From Verrucomicrobiota bacterium (GTDB lineage: Bacteria; Verrucomicrobiota; Verrucomicrobiia; Limisphaerales; UBA9464), in contig JAFLEF010000023.1 of assembly GCA_017309115.1 (NCBI GenBank), positions 23,502-87,501 of the forward strand: a DNA stretch of 64,000 nt, in the 5' to 3' direction. This document shows, in pieces, positions 15,101 to 16,724 of the stretch; within the stretch, counting starts at the first letter, position 1; each line of letters starts with the position of its first letter. Under the pieces are notes generated by a model that saw nothing but the letters and a program-made list of their open reading frames with translations, was not told the origin of the DNA and did not search any database. The position numbers and the translations under genes are program-made.

Positions 15101-16724
15101 GGCGGAATACAGCTACAATGCGTGGGGTGGGCTGACCGCCAGCGCGGGAACGCTGGCCAACGATCGGCAGTACACCGGCCACTATCGGGATGCCGAGACG
15201 GGACTGCACTATCTGGGCGCGCGTTACTACGACGACGAGCAGGCGCGGTTCCTGGCGCAGGATCCGCGGCTGGGTGATTCCGGATCGCCGAACAGCCTGC
15301 ACCGTTTCCTCTACGCCAACGCCAATCCGTTGCGGTACGTCGATCCCACCGGCTACACCAGCGAACCCGCCGGTGCGAGTGGGAACGATCCGAAGAGAGA
15401 GGCGACCGGTTCCAAGAAGGGCAAGAGCACCAAGGAAGTGGATCCGGAGCGGCGCAACACGGTGATCGATTCGCAGACCGGGGAACATTACGTGCCTTGG
15501 TGGTCGGATCGGCAGGTGGTGGCTGAGGCGCGCAAGGAGGCCAAGGAGGCGGCGGCGCGGGAGATTCGGGCGCTGGAACAGAGTTTGGATCGGGCCGACC
15601 AATACTATGAGGCCTATCTCGAGTGGAGTCTGGCCAAGGGTCAGGCCGAGGCCCGAGAAAAGATGGCGAAGGTGCGGCAGTTGGAGGCGTTGGTAGCGCG
15701 CGGTGGTTCGGGCGATAAACTGCAGTACTTCACCGATCAATGGGCGCACATGGTCGCGACCGCGGGAGATGATCCGGGCTTGGTTCAGGCGGGCGCAGCG
15801 GGCCTCATTCAGGCAATCGGACAGTATATGGGCGGGGCGTTGAACGTGGGTTCGGGTCTGGGAACCTTAAGCGGCAAATTGGATGTCGAGGAGACTACCG
15901 GCGTGGCGCCGTCGGGTTGGGATTATTTGGCCGCCGGCGCGGATGTCATGCAGGTCGGCGGGACGGTGGGTGGTGCGCTGGCCAATGTCTCTCGGGCCTC
16001 CCGGGTGCGCGAGGCCCGGACTGCCATTCAGTCCGCGTTCGATCAGGAGCAGGTGGGCCGGGCGCTGATGGCTCCGGCGGGATTGGTCGATGATGCCAGC
16101 CGGCTGGGAGCGGTGACGGAACTGGCGGACACGTGGATTGGCCGAACCTTGCGATCGGATGAAATTCTAACCGAAGTCGTTCCACGAGTACGATTCGACG
16201 GCCCGATCTTGAATCATTTGGTGGATGCGCCGACCCAGGTCATGAGTCGCGCGGAATTGGTGGCGGCCAGTGTAGCCCGGGACGTGAGAATGGTGGCGGA
16301 CATTCCCGAGACCTTTATGGGAGCGGTTCGTTCGCGACTTCTCGACATCGGGGTCGGCGTGGTGTCGCGGCAAGAGGCGCTGCGGTTGGGTAAACCGCTC
16401 ACCTGGGACAACCCGGCGCGACTGATCTACGACAAGATCATCCTGGTGGAAGACGCCTTGGTGAATGCGGCCCAGCGTCGGGATCTCGCAGGAGCGATCA
16501 GCGGCAATAAGTTTGGGATCTTCGAAGCCACCGATGTTTTGCGGGCGAACCTGCTGCACGAGATCGGCGAACGGGCGATCCGACTCTTTCAGAAAGGGGG
16601 AATGTCCCGGCCCGTTCTGTTCAATCTGGAAGTCGAGGACGTGATCCTGCGCCGTTTGGCCACCGAAGATCCCGAGATGGCCCGCCGACTGAGTCAACTG
16701 ATCGGAACTGGAGCGTTTAAATGA
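3180..16724 (+). CDS. Giant secreted RHS/YD-repeat protein (~4,514 aa). Order: signal peptide, Ig-like (SbsA_Ig/Big-type) domains, propeller-like region, ~1,800-aa YD shell, RHS core terminus, ~455-aa unknown C-terminal domain
   Basis: The ORF-track frame 2703..16724 is uninterrupted. The in-frame ATG at 3180 gives MSPLVSQLGRFLRCFLARTCWWLGWLLAVGAGALTARAQ (signal-like) and makes an ATGA overlap with the upstream gene. I counted at least ~35 YD-type units by eye (YEYDPSGNRL, FTYDAAGNLLTL, YTYDAVGNLLTS, FRYDANRNKLAQ...). Shell entry motif: VDLWDGHLTHSRQDVAVPGRKLALDFSRTYSNSG..GPLGGGWTHNY. Terminal motif: YLGARYYDDEQARFLAQDP...ANPLRYVDPTGY. Confidence 0.92.
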   Translation: MSPLVSQLGRFLRCFLARTCWWLGWLLAVGAGALTARAQERTFTLDGGKVVLTDVSDRATVLVRSLRYLPERRVWNASLLVRNAGSIPLRGPIVVVAESWTGTSGPRQTDTSAGSGEPEFWRVSPGPLGTNELTVPRLIVLGAEGTVAPQVRWKVYAGQAPVESPGLGFTRTLTATGLPLGEVTVTQLQPSVGPGRVTEAESGVVSVNGPPGSYRLRFDRPGFLSSFAVAQLSAGGLTLIPNPRLTPRDLTSVELAPGAVLASADGVVELTVDPGAPPPNGQRATLTVFPEQALPAPLPVGWSPLAAWSWEPERATAARARVRLGVRGVAAGTVVPVTLKSDGRWLLRGEALTVDSAGVVVLTLNESERVAVVVPDAGGSLPAAGTELPAGSTPVPTPDQLVVTSRVEPPVVAASTNATLVTAQAELTVSNRSGALPSGGVLRLEISEQYELTDGSRRTPPRYETFVRVFRRPDATNAAVGFATFPLRPLLLFPGDQLQSATVTVEVLAPADFAGGRLVPGGSYTNGGFRVVSQLGDLAEPQAILLEPLGLAGEAVPGQRVLTDLELTGGIPRAAFELHLGGVTPGRRLGLQVDRELPDGEYVLLQLRSRGTELELQPRERLIRRNGEFQSAEGSGSPAPGLAGSGQFVVVQVPGPLEWVTGQVEDAGASRTNLPVTVTGQPWVVFTDATGRFLTLAPAGSVEVAVRDSGSARSAFRTLAVVAGVAPAPVTLALALEAPRVLTAFPADGAVGVDRLVAPKLTLSRPLRASSVNAGTVVLRGTNGAVIPARITLESGNTVLRVYPAEPLAGETQFTLELAASIADDAGTGLTGRRQFSFVTVSTPWVRPPGAQLYSWVPTNGVARIVGTEGLAPPGFPVIFVNDTTGETATSTAGRGGEFEQTIPAWLEDRLRLVFVNADGTRSELAVGQQRFPDGSVAFYSEGGTLTATNLASELRELRLEVPPGAVSGRTRFRLEPRPLLDAEVLTSNTPPADAQALGFFRLEIEGDPLREPVRLIFKDLDLDRLQPPAGRTVDDIPLVVGAPTWVDEAIGGTPTRTLGYRYLGQVVPLTNAVAASGRVGRQSILAGGVLTFAGSGNLSAMLFGPIIWSKMEVAGKVFSADLSQGPVPVAGSEVPLAGAVVRGRSRSNLSSIPFSLQPGEIYTLSDANGFFAFLAPANYQSGAITPLLQGYSLNATHPAFPGQMAGSHGRASVYDPSHPFGGGTILFDRTRPADTQPPSIFASHVPGLPAVSERIRFTATASDPGGIASLVALTDSVNPFNAVVNLRSAGSGIWELTSDRPAKVVLRVEAVDGYGNRATRTHAILVGQPPSAPPTVNDPAGPLVVGAEPDAGALGVSPATVIQLQFSEELDDGIRTNAALFLTLSPSAWTLTSEFGRSRRDVVVRVPGLRPDTDYTLTVQGVRDLSGQVLDQNPATNSPAAEPFVLNFRTAPELSEVLPGITEGGGALIRGAYAFVLDRQRQSPQLVVFDISVPSRPVRVYSRPLPGPPRAMVLIPDYDFATSFVDLHQPDPNQPVGIRRGNLLAVAGQLSGATTSYLRVLDLGGLPDDVPTLAGNVLSIDPTSLITRLDWSPPYLLAVENSSEAPSLHVLNLQAVILGQALTDFSRQFARAYLPAPPVIYPERAVPAVDANQDGDFVDPGDSLPVPGLDTVGSVAGEVSLLTLMPNRRGANGGELVLVRSPRFVTDAFIDGPAGYLGALTTPGADTVVEFTSAPVSTNRVDHSTEFRSFLVGQNLSETASVSFPEFYPKRAVPVMVFGRRLVLVNLLSLDNQTNRICVLDTTQAESPVKLADVDLPQSEFGVLQGAVLDERGRIVLSTVTTNGENFVLLDPTRFLDPVVPGAIHPAVLGVIPGAGGGVTSFGVIPGGTSVASLRGVNVVAQTAPVIRLVQATTNSLSAFDEPDLTNRLAELRSLADVEFLPVARHGTNISDLLPANPARHFHLWVEAPGGAGRELEVTALSLDAAGFVVVRTNGAAPPAVLRAVPLRRLTSDPRSPAFNTFLSRPLALLAEDLPLTEANAVQAALRRHLLFAGTRLRVGFSEELFANPALSDFAGAGRITVAVPTNTLPPRLGVALGRPVLDLQPRLEADDTLVIRTVVDAVNTNACPGSAYLSFGHTVNCRISMFVDGQPARNLYDDQGRFYAIFTNVPSAAGFHQILLDAAAVGDPGRHTFELVGTQFDGSEPQVTLSESGVVEHEVEIHHNFPVGHTIIQGVDLWDGHLTHSRQDVAVPGRKLALDFSRTYSNSGNSSAGPLGGGWTHNYHIRLEQRCGVWTVIGGEGTGNAFTQPQPDAAKLGRYARFLPAARGQYEFFQPQVGYHSVLVRDTDRTSEAWFFTKSAVRYHFVSDGSSSTPSATVYRLRSIREPNGNELRLNYQDNDSNPATLDTVTEYEPTGVPKRGFRFQYRVIAGEDRLVNLRGFNQQGSPDLLGLEIRYAYDEWGNLTNVTRWGGSPAESRTDSYTYTPGFEGPTTHNLLTWTDPNGAVTQYEYFPAGAAGYYAMSSLLEGAPPHETVRSITRLGTARPGFAATDDSVTRFAYDFAGGTRRVSDPRTGLTVPDTVYTLNAYGATVRIEAPLGQTTLLEWATDHRNGAVRNEAGQAVNDVVLTRKVDAEGQEVRYEYHDGRGNVTREITTVAPGKRAVFDSQGRTVTVSELVQTYHPVFNFPETVVDAEGHSSRFELDPATGNLLRSTDGVGSVTVFEYYPNGDVQIRRDPRGFETRFVRYDPYGNAELIVDAEGNEISNQYDERSRLRETRDTFTHHRTFAYDALDRLVAETQENDLSGLATGPGSRTGTGYLPGGQVQVQTNALGLVSRTEYDALNRRVRMTQVAVPQGDGSRVDYVQTWQYDVAGNVVAEVDFRNVRREHRYDALNRRDRTTLSGPHGGPFNADGVLSRITFDRINNVLEEINHQGLTNRYAYDGLHRLAEQTLPLPGAVLRTDRDRLGNVLVSTDPNGKETRFAYDGAQRLRSRVDPEGNETRFEYDPSGNRLRQVDLASGLITTNAYDRVGRPVLAVLNGPGVTNYVTRTRYENRRNEMVVTNARGVVTRTRKDGLDRLAEKVVADGDLNLTTRFTYDAAGNLLTLSDAENGDVDLTHSYDTLGRRLSTRWVSTPDDRGVPVFEEFGYDAGGLVVARRDRRGFAHRATFDNLGRPLKQELRESLSNQGSWLVVAETAYEDAANAQETWDANRNRTRIEFDPLGRVARLVDPLGQVLTSSYDGVNQRERRDRRGQRVVFTYDGLNRLLTQHEFDGTGTLRTSLTNSFQDAFNRRVMTDRRGLQTIVQVDALGRELEVLRSGGDLALRYGSDPVRLQFNAYDESSNLVRSEDADGRVTTHEYDAAERRTRTTEGAGSPVAAATEYTYDAVGNLLTSKDGRSHSGTFDARHEYDARYRLVRTINALNETNRQVFDAANNLVESVDARGGQTRYRYDELNTLLAVDETPRGTGANAGVTRFRYDANRNKLAQQDASGNLVTYEYDGLNRMTRMFQHTVAGQLSEPVLRGASPGGDLTSALETRYGYDPNGNPATLRDPRGQVVESVHDHLNRRISRTYSQHAEQTGGRPLDFQPIRMEWVLDGNGNEVETREVKQLGTTAVTERIEQVFDALDRLTQKTRWDHDDATGRRLTFRYDRAGHRTEATDVDGRVTQWVYDARGRVQQVILDPGVGALTAGYFWEPDGLLQRMEYPGGVVAERQYDAADRLISITNAVGSGGPLLSAFTFRYDANGNRQEQVEFNPALRPGPETNSYGYDLLNRLTQVTNGSGRLEYTYAPNGNRLTEVGSAGGQPVDRVFLYGALPGVSGTYNGVNSLSRIEDRVTAAQTITYHYDANLNQVSREQGGLVRQFRYDARDQLIATEAGNALMKFDNNSDRLRVKKISAAQETRYLYDESAVVVEYGDAALAHATQRKYEQGEGLVSLGVPGAAGLDRYFYLTDALGSSVHLLNATGARAAEYSYNAWGGLTASAGTLANDRQYTGHYRDAETGLHYLGARYYDDEQARFLAQDPRLGDSGSPNSLHRFLYANANPLRYVDPTGYTSEPAGASGNDPKREATGSKKGKSTKEVDPERRNTVIDSQTGEHYVPWWSDRQVVAEARKEAKEAAAREIRALEQSLDRADQYYEAYLEWSLAKGQAEAREKMAKVRQLEALVARGGSGDKLQYFTDQWAHMVATAGDDPGLVQAGAAGLIQAIGQYMGGALNVGSGLGTLSGKLDVEETTGVAPSGWDYLAAGADVMQVGGTVGGALANVSRASRVREARTAIQSAFDQEQVGRALMAPAGLVDDASRLGAVTELADTWIGRTLRSDEILTEVVPRVRFDGPILNHLVDAPTQVMSRAELVAASVARDVRMVADIPETFMGAVRSRLLDIGVGVVSRQEALRLGKPLTWDNPARLIYDKIILVEDALVNAAQRRDLAGAISGNKFGIFEATDVLRANLLHEIGERAIRLFQKGGMSRPVLFNLEVEDVILRRLATEDPEMARRLSQLIGTGAFK
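5395..5700 (+). other. Ig-like (SbsA_Ig/Big_5-like) domain inside the RHS protein. A second similar one lies at about 7200-7540
   Basis: PRVLTAFPADGAVGVDRLVAPKLTLSRPLRASSVNAGTVVLRG...RVYPAEPLAGETQFTLELAASIADDAGTGL and PLVVGAEPDAGALGVSPATVIQLQFSEELDD...GLRPDTDYTLTVQGVRDLSGQVL follow the SbsA_Ig pattern (P.DGA.gV....i.l.FSe.l....v....l......tY.l.v.....D.aGn). Confidence 0.55.
7560..8800 (+). other. Possible beta-propeller region with LVIVD-like blades, N-terminal to the YD shell (tentative)
   Basis: Recurring blade-like strings: GAYAFVLDRQRQSPQLVVFDISVPSRPVRV, SYLRVLDLGGLPDDVP, PYLLAVENSSEAPSLHVLNLQ, NRICVLDTTQAESPVKLADVDL, GRIVLSTVTTNGENFVLLDPT. Recognised by eye only. Confidence 0.35.
9880..15356 (+). 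repeat. RHS/YD-repeat shell, from the entry motif to the RHS core terminus DPTGY
   Basis: Starts at VDLWDGHL...GGGWTHNYH (about 9885-10035). Continuous YD units follow. Ends at RYVDPTGY, with DPTGY at 15342-15356. Confidence 0.9.
15357..16721 (+). other. C-terminal variable domain (~455 aa) downstream of the RHS core terminus; presumed encapsulated cargo/toxin, no known family recognised
   Basis: It lies after DPTGY, where polymorphic toxin domains sit. It holds a K/E/A-rich coiled-coil-like stretch (about 15500-15710: EARKEAKEAAAREIRALEQSLDRADQYYEAYLEWSLAKGQAEAREKMAKVRQLEAL). It also holds two Gly-zipper-like stretches (about 15770-15990: GLVQAGAAGLIQAIGQYMGGALNVGSGLGTLSG; AAGADVMQVGGTVGGALANV). 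I recognise no catalytic motif. Confidence 0.7.

What the first reader, a model, noticed from the sequence alone, without database searches (positions are those of the whole stretch)
15357..16721. Unrecognisable ~455-aa domain after the RHS terminus, with a coiled-coil and glycine-zipper-like segments
The domain sits directly after RYVDPTGY, where polymorphic toxin domains are found. I recognise no nuclease, deaminase, ART, peptidase or lipase motif in it.

Seen in the sequence:
- a basic linker (KREATGSKKGKSTKE);
- a ~70-aa K/E/A heptad-like stretch;
- two Gly/Ala-rich amphipathic stretches (GLVQAGAAGLIQAIGQYMGGALNVGSGLGTLSG and AAGADVMQVGGTVGGALANV);
- a ~230-aa globular-looking tail.

Established knowledge: glycine-zipper motifs occur in several membrane-depolarising effectors.

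Inference: this is either a membrane-targeting cargo or a new toxin fold. At ~455 aa it is also large for an encapsulated RHS cargo.
Basis: partly seen in the sequence, partly recalled or inferred. Interest (0 to 1): 0.75.

Follow-up and report, generated by a model that had tools for sequence, protein, structure and literature searches.

The report
Three-part orphan cargo of giant RHS protein
The 455 residues after the RHS shell are a real, conserved C-terminal cargo made of a floppy linker, a rare helical module shared with a few other RHS proteins, and a tail found nowhere else; it is probably a delivered toxin or effector, but its activity could not be identified.

Summary
Window 15357-16721 encodes 455 aa (49.1 kDa, pI 5.5) directly after the RHS autoprotease motif (D4187, D4214, ...RYVDPTGY) of a 4514-aa Sec-signal RHS protein. 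It matches no Pfam, NCBIfam, PADLOC, PHROG or PDB entry.

It is not one domain:
- CT 1-44: a basic linker that evolves fast.
- CT 45-239: a helical module. An exhaustive phmmer search of 1.84 billion proteins found it in only three other proteins (about 30% identity). One of them is also an RHS C-terminus. G165-x3-G169-x3-G173 is invariant in all four.
- CT 240-455: an all-orphan tail. It is unrelated to the tails of those relatives (hhalign probability 0.2%).

Two near-identical orthologues show purifying selection on the module and the tail, and no tip swapping. No helix is hydrophobic enough to be called transmembrane. AlphaFold2 failed (pLDDT 37-44). No small immunity gene follows; the next gene, overlapping by ATGA, is a 4279-aa surface protein.

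Best reading: a polymorphic RHS cargo built as a pre-toxin or entry-like module plus a variable effector. Membrane targeting is possible but not shown. At 49 kDa the cargo exceeds the largest natural cargo reported for Photorhabdus Tc cocoons (35 kDa).

The parts
1975..3183 (+). Upstream gene orfU: 402-aa predicted lipoprotein (MQPSIFRMVITAVALLAGC...) of unknown family. Its stop overlaps the RHS start codon (ATGA).
   Evidence: Translation and junction sequence. No Pfam hit. The same gene is called upstream of the orthologue in L080.
3180..16724 (+). Giant RHS gene, 4514 aa from ATG 3180. The mechanical ORF runs back to GTG 2703. It has an N-terminal Sec-type signal peptide, Big_5 and CarboxypepD_reg Ig-like domains, then the RHS shell and the cargo.
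   Evidence: The 4514-aa gene call and a gap-free orthologue of identical length, P0002/L080. The signal peptide is read from the sequence (inference).
9888..15356 (+). RHS/YD shell, 1823 aa, from DUF6531 to ...RYVDPTGY. It includes the autoprotease aspartates D4187 (15261-15263) and D4214 (15342-15344). Cleavage is predicted after Y4218 (15354-15356).
   Evidence: Pfam RHS_repeat E=1.4e-97 with 23 stretches, and DUF6531. PDB alignments to 8h8a, 8cp6_B (Tse5), 8uy4 and TcdB2-TccC3 end at DPTG. Residue positions.
15357..15488 (+). CT 1-44: basic Gly/Ser/Lys-rich linker, predicted disordered.
   Evidence: GRAVY -1.61. Low pLDDT and no secondary structure. It is the least conserved segment: 88.6% identity, and nonsynonymous codons outnumber synonymous ones (5 vs 3 and 7 vs 3). 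The first six residues TSEPAG resemble ASEPSG in P0007.
15489..16073 (+). CT 45-239: conserved helical 'pre-toxin' module. It has a long charged helix (CT 49-115, window 15501-15701), GGxGD, DDPGL, and Gly/Ala-rich helices.
   Evidence: phmmer hits to P0003, P0006 and P0007 cover only this part. Composition-adjusted BLASTP gives 3e-12, 6e-8 and 5e-10. Invariant columns are listed. Identity to P0002 is 99.5%; synonymous/nonsynonymous codons are 9/1 and 36/4.
15837..15883 (+). Signature motif of the module, A-L-N-V-G165-SGL-G169-TLS-G173-K-L-D: an invariant GxxxGxxxG glycine zipper.
   Evidence: The degenerate DNA pattern matches the window once, with 0 expected by chance. It also matches L001 and L004. 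Invariant G165, G169 and G173.
16074..16721 (+). CT 240-455: orphan tail of 216 aa (23.7 kDa, pI 5.8, no Cys, 2 His), predicted helical at low confidence. It is the presumed effector part.
   Evidence: Among 1.84e9 representative proteins the only homologues are its own orthologues. No Pfam or PDB hit. It is unrelated to the P0003/P0007 tails (hhalign probability 0.2%). Purifying selection: synonymous/nonsynonymous 13/4 and 12/5.
16721..29560 (+). Downstream gene p2: 4279-aa signal-peptide surface protein (CarboxypepD_reg x6, Big_5). Its start overlaps the RHS stop (ATGA). It occupies the place where an immunity gene would be expected.
   Evidence: The arrangement is conserved in L001 and L080.

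Best explanation
The 455 residues are the C-terminal cargo of a Sec-exported, 4514-aa RHS protein. The shell's own aspartyl autoprotease (D4187, D4214) probably cuts the cargo free after Y4218.

The cargo is modular:
- A disordered basic linker.
- A ~195-aa helical module carrying an invariant GxxxGxxxG. It recurs in a very small set of other RHS C-termini, so it behaves like a 'pre-toxin' or entry-type module.
- A ~216-aa tail that differs between family members and is the actual effector.

The most likely mechanism is as follows. The shell carries the mostly unfolded cargo out of the producer. After release at a target cell, the conserved helical module mediates membrane interaction or import, by analogy with the N-terminal entry domains of CdiA-CT toxins. 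The tail then exerts the toxic or effector activity.

Shown: position, intact processing motif, modular homology pattern, purifying selection, orphan status.
Inferred: cleavage, encapsulation, the delivery role of the module, and toxicity of the tail.
For: - RHS identity and processing motif.
- Module against tail: phmmer over 1.84e9 proteins finds P0003, P0006 and P0007 matching only CT ~45-239. BLASTP confirms this. The tails are unrelated, while the P0003 and P0007 tails are 45-50% identical to each other.
- P0007 is itself an RHS C-terminus (FIDPTGF), and its module lies at the same distance from the cleavage site.
- Identity to P0007 falls in steps: 40% over the aligned RHS end plus module (by eye about 60% in the RHS core), about 30% in the module, none in the tail.
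- Both parts are under purifying selection; the linker is not.
- A bipartite entry-plus-toxin layout, and a glycine zipper as the only shared element of helical ionophore toxins, are both documented for CdiA-CTs (PMC11630599). Pre-toxin domains are a recognised element of polymorphic toxins (PMC3482391).
Against: - No immunity-like small gene follows. The next gene is a 4279-aa surface protein, and this holds in two other strains.
- The family has only four members and two tail types, so modularity rests on a small sample.
- There is no tip variation among the three near-identical orthologues.
- The tail has no recognisable catalytic motif and only weak local resemblance to helical repeat proteins.
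- The module has no predicted TM helix and no usable 3D model.
- A 49-kDa cargo needs about 59,000 cubic angstroms even if compact (my estimate at 1.21 cubic angstroms per Da). That is far above Tse5-type cavities, so full encapsulation is uncertain.
- No delivery system (T6SS, TcA) is encoded in the window.
Confidence: 0.5

Rival explanations
1. The conserved Gly/Ala-rich module is itself the toxin. It would be a membrane-depolarising pore former or ionophore of the glycine-zipper type, as in Tse5-CT, the CdiA-CT(EC93) ionophores or EsxX. The variable tail would be a receptor-binding or accessory domain.
For: - GxxxGxxxG is invariant in all four members.
- The Gly/Ala-rich helices are weakly amphipathic.
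- An Rhs-delivered pore former exists (Tse5, PMC10684867).
- A glycine zipper is the only shared element of the CDI helical ionophores (PMC11630599).
Against: - The zipper lies in a polar context (LNVGSGLGTLSGKLD; GELAGKLQ in relatives). Maximum Kyte-Doolittle hydropathy is 1.13, and mean Eisenberg hydrophobicity is 0.38-0.47.
- Searches of PDB sequences, which hold the Tse5 shell chain, gave no toxin-like match. Whether Tse5-CT itself is among them was not checked.
- In polymorphic toxins the toxic domain is normally the extreme, variable C-terminus. Here the zipper is in the conserved part.
- No small hydrophobic immunity gene is present.
Confidence: 0.18
2. The cargo is an effector aimed at eukaryotic cells or at organisms that have a target the producer lacks. 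It would be used in a Tc-toxin-like or teneurin-like manner, which would explain why no immunity gene is present.
For: - No immunity gene follows.
- The shell is 1823 aa. The TcdB2-TccC3 fusion constructs in the PDB are about 2130-2440 aa, against about 1120-1150 aa for the Tse5 and V. parahaemolyticus Rhs shells (chain lengths).
- The protein carries a signal peptide and adhesin-like Ig domains instead of PAAR or VgrG.
Against: - No TcA-like gene lies in the window.
- Cargo pI is 5.5, whereas translocation through TcA required pI of about 8 or more (PMC6868009).
- Nothing in the tail resembles known anti-eukaryotic enzymes.
- The organism and its habitat are unknown; only metagenome hits were found.
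Confidence: 0.15
3. The C-terminal region is not a toxin. It would be a structural or protein-binding helical domain, for example a helical-repeat adaptor that couples the RHS protein to the co-translated giant surface protein p2 or to the lipoprotein orfU.
For: - The three genes are translationally coupled by ATGA overlaps, and the synteny is conserved.
- The tail is as conserved as the shell in close strains.
- The tail has weak local similarity to TPR-like and FAS1 repeat proteins.
- No immunity gene is present.
Against: - The intact autoprotease motif and the position after DPTGY are hallmarks of released cargo.
- The relatives carry unrelated tails, one type with a nucleotidyltransferase-like G...SDLD[IV]A motif.
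- The repeat-protein similarities owe their scores to repetition, and no Pfam TPR or Fasciclin model matches.
Confidence: 0.12
4. The region is not a real protein-coding feature. It would be a chance ORF extension, a frameshifted remnant or an assembly artefact.
For: None found.
Against: - The reading frame is continuous.
- GC3 is 0.69-0.75, as in neighbouring genes.
- Independent assemblies (JGI 3300048583, Logan SRR10663364) are colinear with it at 94% nucleotide (L001) and 97.5% amino-acid (P0002) identity, and most differences are synonymous.
Confidence: 0.01

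Closest known systems
Tse5 (PA2684) of Pseudomonas aeruginosa: a T6SS Rhs protein whose encapsulated C-terminal fragment is a pore-forming, membrane-depolarising toxin (PMC10684867)
   Same: - RHS cocoon with a C-terminal aspartyl autoprotease; the window's core aligns to the Tse5 shell and ends at DPTG.
- The cargo is released by cleavage and is mostly helical or disordered.
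   Different: - Tse5-CT is about 16 kDa in a cavity of about 32,000 cubic angstroms. Here the cargo is 49 kDa behind an 1823-aa shell.
- PDB sequence searches returned no toxin-like match; whether Tse5-CT is in that set was not checked.
- Tse5 has a PAAR-like N-terminus, uses the T6SS and, to my knowledge, has an immunity gene. Here there is a Sec signal peptide and Ig-like domains, and no T6SS or immunity gene nearby.
- No hydrophobic helices are predicted here.
[quoted passage not shown]
   Same: - Two-module logic: one N-terminal helical module combined with different C-terminal domains.
- A glycine zipper is a conserved feature.
- All parts are alpha-helical.
   Different: - The carrier differs: an RHS shell instead of a CdiA filament, and no VENN motif.
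- In the CDI ionophores the zipper is in the C-terminal toxic domain. Here it is in the conserved N-terminal module.
- There is no sequence homology.
- CdiI immunity genes follow CdiA; none follows here.
TcC hypervariable regions of Tc (ABC) toxins, e.g. TccC3 in the TcdB2-TccC3 cocoon (PMC6868009)
   Same: - A long RHS shell (1823 aa here).
- The cargo is cleaved by the same aspartyl protease motif.
- To my knowledge no immunity gene is needed, because the target is eukaryotic.
   Different: - The largest natural Photorhabdus luminescens Tc cargo is 35.1 kDa, and translocation needs a basic cargo (pI of about 8 or more). Here the cargo is 49.1 kDa with pI 5.5.
- No TcA gene is in the window.
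- The shell and the N-terminal adhesin-like region are one polypeptide with a signal peptide.
WapA-type Sec-exported RHS/YD toxins and the 'pre-toxin domains' of polymorphic toxin systems (PMC3482391, PMC4436062)
   Same: - Signal peptide, then surface repeats, then RHS, then a variable C-terminal toxin.
- A conserved domain lying between the carrier and the toxin is a known architectural element.
   Different: - The module matches none of the Pfam models searched, which, to my knowledge, include the named pre-toxin families (PT-HINT, PT-TG, PT-VENN, DUF637).
- No downstream immunity gene is present.
- The protein is much larger, and its operon partners are unusual.

Membership tests
RHS/YD-repeat polymorphic toxin | Array of RHS/YD repeats forming a shell | tested here: met
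   Pfam RHS_repeat E=1.4e-97 with 23 stretches. PDB hits to Rhs, Tse5, Tse15 and TcB-TcC shells.
RHS/YD-repeat polymorphic toxin | C-terminal RHS core with the aspartyl autoprotease motif (...DPxG... / ...DPxG[LYF]) that delimits the cargo | tested here: met
   FLAQD4187P... and RYVD4214PTGY align to the corresponding motifs of 8h8a, 8cp6_B (Tse5) and TcdB2-TccC3. The alignments end at DPTG. Cleavage itself cannot be tested here.
RHS/YD-repeat polymorphic toxin | C-terminal region varies between otherwise related RHS proteins | tested here: inconclusive
   No variation among three orthologues that are 97-98% identical. Against P0007, identity is 40% over the RHS end plus module, about 30% in the module, and the tail is unrelated. 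Only two tail types are known.
RHS/YD-repeat polymorphic toxin | Cognate small immunity gene immediately downstream | tested here: not met
   The next gene overlaps by ATGA and encodes a 4279-aa signal-peptide protein. There is no small ORF with support and no orphan cassette.
T6SS Rhs effector | PAAR, prePAAR or VgrG-binding N-terminus and T6SS genes nearby | tested here: not met
   The N-terminus has a signal peptide plus Big_5 and CarboxypepD_reg domains and no PAAR. No T6SS gene is in the 64-kb window.
Tc (ABC) toxin BC component | TcA partner gene; cargo that is basic (pI of about 8 or more) and at most about 35 kDa | tested here: not met
   No TcA-like gene in the window. The cargo is 49.1 kDa with pI 5.47. 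Criteria from PMC6868009.
Glycine-zipper membrane-depolarising toxins (Tse5-CT, CdiA-CT EC93-type ionophores, EsxX) | Conserved GxxxGxxxG motif | tested here: met
   G165, G169 and G173 are invariant in all four members.
Glycine-zipper membrane-depolarising toxins (Tse5-CT, CdiA-CT EC93-type ionophores, EsxX) | Hydrophobic or membrane-spanning helices that carry the zipper | tested here: not met
   Maximum Kyte-Doolittle hydropathy over 19 residues is 1.13. The zipper segment contains N, S, T, K and D (E, K, Q in relatives).
Glycine-zipper membrane-depolarising toxins (Tse5-CT, CdiA-CT EC93-type ionophores, EsxX) | Membrane depolarisation or pore activity | not testable with these tools
   This needs expression, membrane-potential dyes and bilayer recordings.
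Known toxin, immunity or defence domain families (Pfam Tox-*/Ntox*, NCBIfam, PADLOC, PHROGs) | Significant profile match | tested here: not met
   There are no families for the tail even at E up to 10. For the module there are only sub-threshold hits to helical families.
CdiA-CT-like bipartite toxin (works-like comparison only) | One N-terminal module combined with unrelated C-terminal domains | tested here: met
   The module is shared with P0003, P0006 and P0007. The tails are unrelated. The sample is small.

The most novel reading that the evidence does not exclude
The conserved helical glycine-zipper module is a self-contained import or membrane-insertion device. It would let a Sec-exported, T6SS-independent RHS protein deliver interchangeable effectors into target cells. 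The 49-kDa cargo, larger than any characterised RHS or Tc cargo, would be housed by an enlarged (1823-aa) cocoon or be only partly encapsulated. The orphan tail would then be a new effector fold that needs no cognate immunity gene in the producer.
Probability: 0.2. Interest if true: 0.7.

Novelty: new variant of a known kind. Interest (0 to 1): 0.45.

Why it matters
RHS cocoons are being studied as natural and engineerable protein-delivery capsules. Their cargo size limit, and how the cargo crosses target membranes without a T6SS or a TcA syringe, are open questions.

This locus offers a single-chain RHS protein with an unusually long shell and a 49-kDa acidic cargo. The cargo has a conserved module placed between the cleavage site and a variable tail. 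If the module is a delivery device, it would be an RHS counterpart of the CdiA-CT entry domains.

The tail has no homologue among 1.84 billion representative proteins, so it is a candidate new effector. If the cargo proves non-toxic, that would widen what bacterial RHS shells are thought to carry.

As it stands, this is an uncharacterised variant of a well-known architecture, not a new kind of system.

Tried and rejected
- Word-index protein searches found only a 97% twin, nothing with the module profile, probably because low-complexity words swamped it, and one unrelated RHS protein, P0008.
- The search for related loci with the module alignment found nothing in the GTDB representative genomes.
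- I wrote a degenerate DNA pattern for the LNxGxxxGx[LV]xG[KN]L motif. It gave 35 metagenome, 31 genome and 4 viral matches. tblastn showed all of them to be chance matches.
- The viral scan with the whole CT found nothing.
- AlphaFold2 gave pLDDT 44 from the single sequence and 37 from a 5-sequence alignment. I therefore did not run Foldseek, because the matches would be meaningless.
- PDB sequence searches gave only coiled-coil M proteins for the module (E about 0.006) and nothing for the tail.
- The phmmer hits P0004 (FAS1 repeats) and P0005 (TPR-like repeats) were rejected as homologues. Their scores add up many weak repeat matches over CT ~310-425, and no Pfam Fasciclin or TPR model hits the tail.
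- An R-x4-H (HEPN-like) string at CT 396-401 was considered. I estimate about 0.6 such strings by chance for this composition, and no HEPN model hits.
- The antisense ORFs over the region (15000-15749, 16167-16859) were rejected because substitutions are synonymous in the + frame.
- The organism could not be named. Exact-match look-ups return only anonymous metagenome contigs. The window holds no rRNA, tRNA or Rfam match.

Full report
**1. What is at the coordinates**

Window 15357-16721 (+) is the last 455 codons of a very long ORF (2703-16724). The true start is most likely ATG 3180, giving 4514 aa:
- A gene caller on an independent assembly calls exactly that length (L080).
- The upstream 402-aa lipoprotein gene ends in an ATGA overlap with this ATG.

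The protein begins with a Sec-type signal peptide (read from the sequence) and Ig-like domains (Big_5, CarboxypepD_reg). DUF6531 and 23 RHS-repeat matches follow.

Its last shell segment aligns to solved Rhs proteins (8h8a/b, Tse15, the Tse5 shell 8cp6_B, RhsA 7q97), to TcdB2-TccC3 and to teneurin-like proteins. These alignments stop exactly at ...DPTG[YFL]. The two aspartates of the RHS autoprotease are present: FLAQD4187P and RYVD4214PTGY. So residue T4219 (window 15357) is the expected first residue of a released C-terminal fragment (CT).

**2. Is it real**

Yes.
- GC3 in this frame is 0.69-0.75, as in the neighbouring genes.
- Two independent assemblies carry colinear copies: L001 (JGI metagenome, 94% nucleotide identity) and L080/P0002 (Logan, full length, no gaps, 97.5% amino-acid identity).
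- In codon-by-codon comparison, differences in CT 45-239 are 36 synonymous to 4 nonsynonymous (L001) and 9 to 1 (L080). In CT 240-455 they are 13 to 4 and 12 to 5.
- In the first 44 residues nonsynonymous changes dominate, 7 to 3 and 5 to 3.

**3. Anatomy: three parts, not one domain**

The whole CT is 49.1 kDa, pI 5.47, with no cysteine.

An exhaustive phmmer scan of 1.84 billion representative proteins returned only its own orthologues (P0001, P0002) and five weak hits. Three of these (P0003, P0006, P0007) match only CT ~45-239. Composition-adjusted BLASTP confirms them at 3e-12, 6e-8 and 5e-10.

P0007 is itself the end of an RHS protein (...FIDPTGF|ASEPSG...), and its module lies at the same position. 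The alignment of the RHS end plus module is 40% identical overall. By eye the RHS core is about 60% identical and the module about 30%, and the alignment then ends.

Invariant columns in the four-member alignment include GGxGD, D139, L142, L162-N163 and G165, G169, G173. The last three form a GxxxGxxxG.

The tails of P0003 and P0007 are 45-50% identical to each other. They are unrelated to the window's tail (hhalign probability 0.2%).

The CT therefore has three parts:
- A disordered basic linker (CT 1-44).
- A conserved helical module (CT 45-239).
- An orphan tail (CT 240-455).

**4. The individual features claimed**

All the quoted peptides are present.

The K/E/A-rich stretch is predicted as one long helix (CT 49-115). 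It was the only part with pLDDT of 70 or more in the single-sequence model, and its only database echoes are coiled-coil M proteins. Over the whole helix, 3.5-residue periodicity is not significant (p=0.85). 'Long charged helix' is safer than 'coiled coil'.

GxxxG motifs are enriched over the CT (9 observed, 4.1 expected, p=0.013). Inside the Gly-rich stretch they are not enriched beyond composition. The argument for a glycine zipper is its invariance in the family.

No 19-residue window exceeds a Kyte-Doolittle mean of 1.13. The zipper segment is rather polar (LNVGSGLGTLSGKLD; GELAGKLQ in relatives). No transmembrane helix is predicted.

**5. What could not be recognised**

- No Pfam, NCBIfam, PADLOC or PHROG family matches the tail, even at E up to 10. 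No PDB sequence matches it either.
- AlphaFold2 failed: pLDDT 44 from one sequence and 37 with the five-sequence alignment. I did not run Foldseek.
- Further searches for module relatives found nothing real in the metagenome, GTDB-genome or viral collections.
- The phmmer hits to a FAS1-repeat protein and a TPR-like repeat protein are additive weak matches to repeats and were rejected.

**6. Context**

There is no small immunity-type gene. The RHS stop overlaps (ATGA) the start of a 4279-aa signal-peptide surface protein. This arrangement is kept in L001 and L080. Upstream, the lipoprotein gene is coupled in the same way, so the three genes look like one operon.

The 64-kb window holds no T6SS or TcA-like gene and no orphan toxin cassette.

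In the P0007 contig, the gene after the RHS gene encodes a 121-aa protein with a signal peptide and a sub-threshold PilP match. The next ORF also starts with a signal peptide. Even there, the 'immunity' reading is not secure.

The P0003 and P0007 tails share a G...SDLD[IV]A motif, and P0003 gives a weak Polbeta nucleotidyltransferase hit (E=0.028). This is a lead that those tails are enzymes.

**7. Variable-tip test**

Among the three close orthologues the CT is as conserved as the shell: shell 97.7%, module 99.5%, tail 97.7%, linker 88.6%. At family level the drop comes in two steps, as described in section 3. This fits recombination both at the RHS core and at the module-tail junction, but it rests on very few sequences.

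**8. Size**

- Tse5, RhsA and Rhs1 hold cargos of about 15-16 kDa in cavities of about 32,000-35,000 cubic angstroms (PMC10684867).
- The largest natural Photorhabdus luminescens Tc cargo is 35.1 kDa, and a 49-kDa enzyme was judged unlikely to fit. The authors left open whether adding RHS repeats could enlarge the cocoon (PMC6868009).
- Here the cargo is 49.1 kDa. My estimate is about 59,000 cubic angstroms if compact, at 1.21 cubic angstroms per Da.
- The shell from DUF6531 to DPTGY is 1823 aa. That compares with about 1120-1150 aa for the Tse5 and V. parahaemolyticus shells and about 2130-2440 aa for the TcdB2-TccC3 fusion constructs (chain lengths).
- The cargo is acidic (pI 5.5), unlike the Tc cargos that could be translocated (pI of about 8 or more).

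Whether it is fully enclosed is unknown.

**9. Interpretation**

Best supported (about 0.5): a released, modular RHS cargo made of a linker, a conserved pre-toxin or entry-like helical module, and a variable effector tail. It works like the bipartite CdiA-CT toxins (PMC11630599) and fits the 'pre-toxin domain' concept (PMC3482391).

Rivals:
- The zipper module is itself a Tse5-like membrane toxin (0.18).
- An effector aimed at eukaryotes or other non-self targets, which would explain the missing immunity gene (0.15).
- A non-toxic structural or adaptor domain (0.12).
- An artefact (0.01).

Membership in the RHS family is met on repeats and on the processing motif. It is not met on the downstream immunity gene, nor on T6SS or Tc association.

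**10. Verdict**

This is a genuine, conserved, unrecognisable RHS C-terminal cargo. It is a new variant of a known architecture, with a rare conserved module, an orphan tail and an unusual size and context. Its activity remains unassigned. Interest is moderate (0.45).

Noticed in passing
window 16721-29560 (+): A second giant gene (4279 aa) with a signal peptide, six CarboxypepD_reg domains, Big_5, TSP3-like DxDxDG repeats and a long beta-helix-like Gly/Thr-rich C-terminal half. Its start overlaps the RHS stop by ATGA. It shares no sequence similarity with the RHS protein (BLASTP gave no hit).
   Followed up: partly
window 1975-3183 (+): A 402-aa predicted lipoprotein (lipobox LAGC) with no Pfam family. 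It is translationally coupled (ATGA) to the RHS gene and conserved upstream of the orthologue in L080. It is a possible export or anchoring partner.
   Followed up: partly
window 2703-3179 (+): The mechanical ORF of the RHS gene extends 159 codons upstream of the real start (GTG 2703 against ATG 3180) and overlaps orfU. The 4673-aa length in the ORF list is an overestimate.
   Followed up: yes
L004 1800-2309 (contig of P0007): The RHS relative that carries the same module is followed by a 121-126-aa protein with a Sec signal peptide and a sub-threshold PilP match (E=3.7e-4). Another ORF with a signal peptide comes next. This could be a periplasmic immunity protein or part of a secretin-type export system.
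   Followed up: partly
P0003 aa ~205-235 and P0007 aa ~415-450 (tails of module relatives): The two tails share FFG[LI]A...RSDLD[IV]A[YW]I and FQHGSH motifs. P0003 gives a weak Polbeta nucleotidyltransferase hit (E=0.028). They may be a nucleotidyltransferase-fold toxin family.
   Followed up: partly
P0008 (476 aa, NCBI/ENA): An unrelated RHS C-terminus (…FIDPRGL|WGVGAVIGGSGEIGLGGGGEGG…) whose cargo is extremely Gly-rich. It looks like a different, more typical glycine-zipper or bacteriocin-like RHS cargo.
   Followed up: no
window 39484-47350 (+): A 1685-aa subtilase (Peptidase_S8 with a fervidolysin-like prodomain, PD40 repeats and bacterial TSP3 repeats) is followed by a 906-aa protein with Laminin_G_3, DUF6851 and a vanadium-chloroperoxidase-like helical domain. 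The region is rich in very large secreted proteins.
   Followed up: no
window 29533-34482: A DabA/DabB-type inorganic carbon transporter pair (minus strand) lies next to a divergently transcribed LysR regulator. The exact LysR protein sequence turns up in contigs from several unrelated metagenome runs, so the organism is widespread but unnamed.
   Followed up: partly
window CT 340-455 (16374-16721): The tail shows weak local similarity (29-37% over 50-110 aa) to single repeat units of a TPR-like repeat protein (P0005) and a FAS1-repeat protein (P0004). This hints at helical-hairpin repeats rather than an enzyme, but it is not significant against Pfam.
   Followed up: yes
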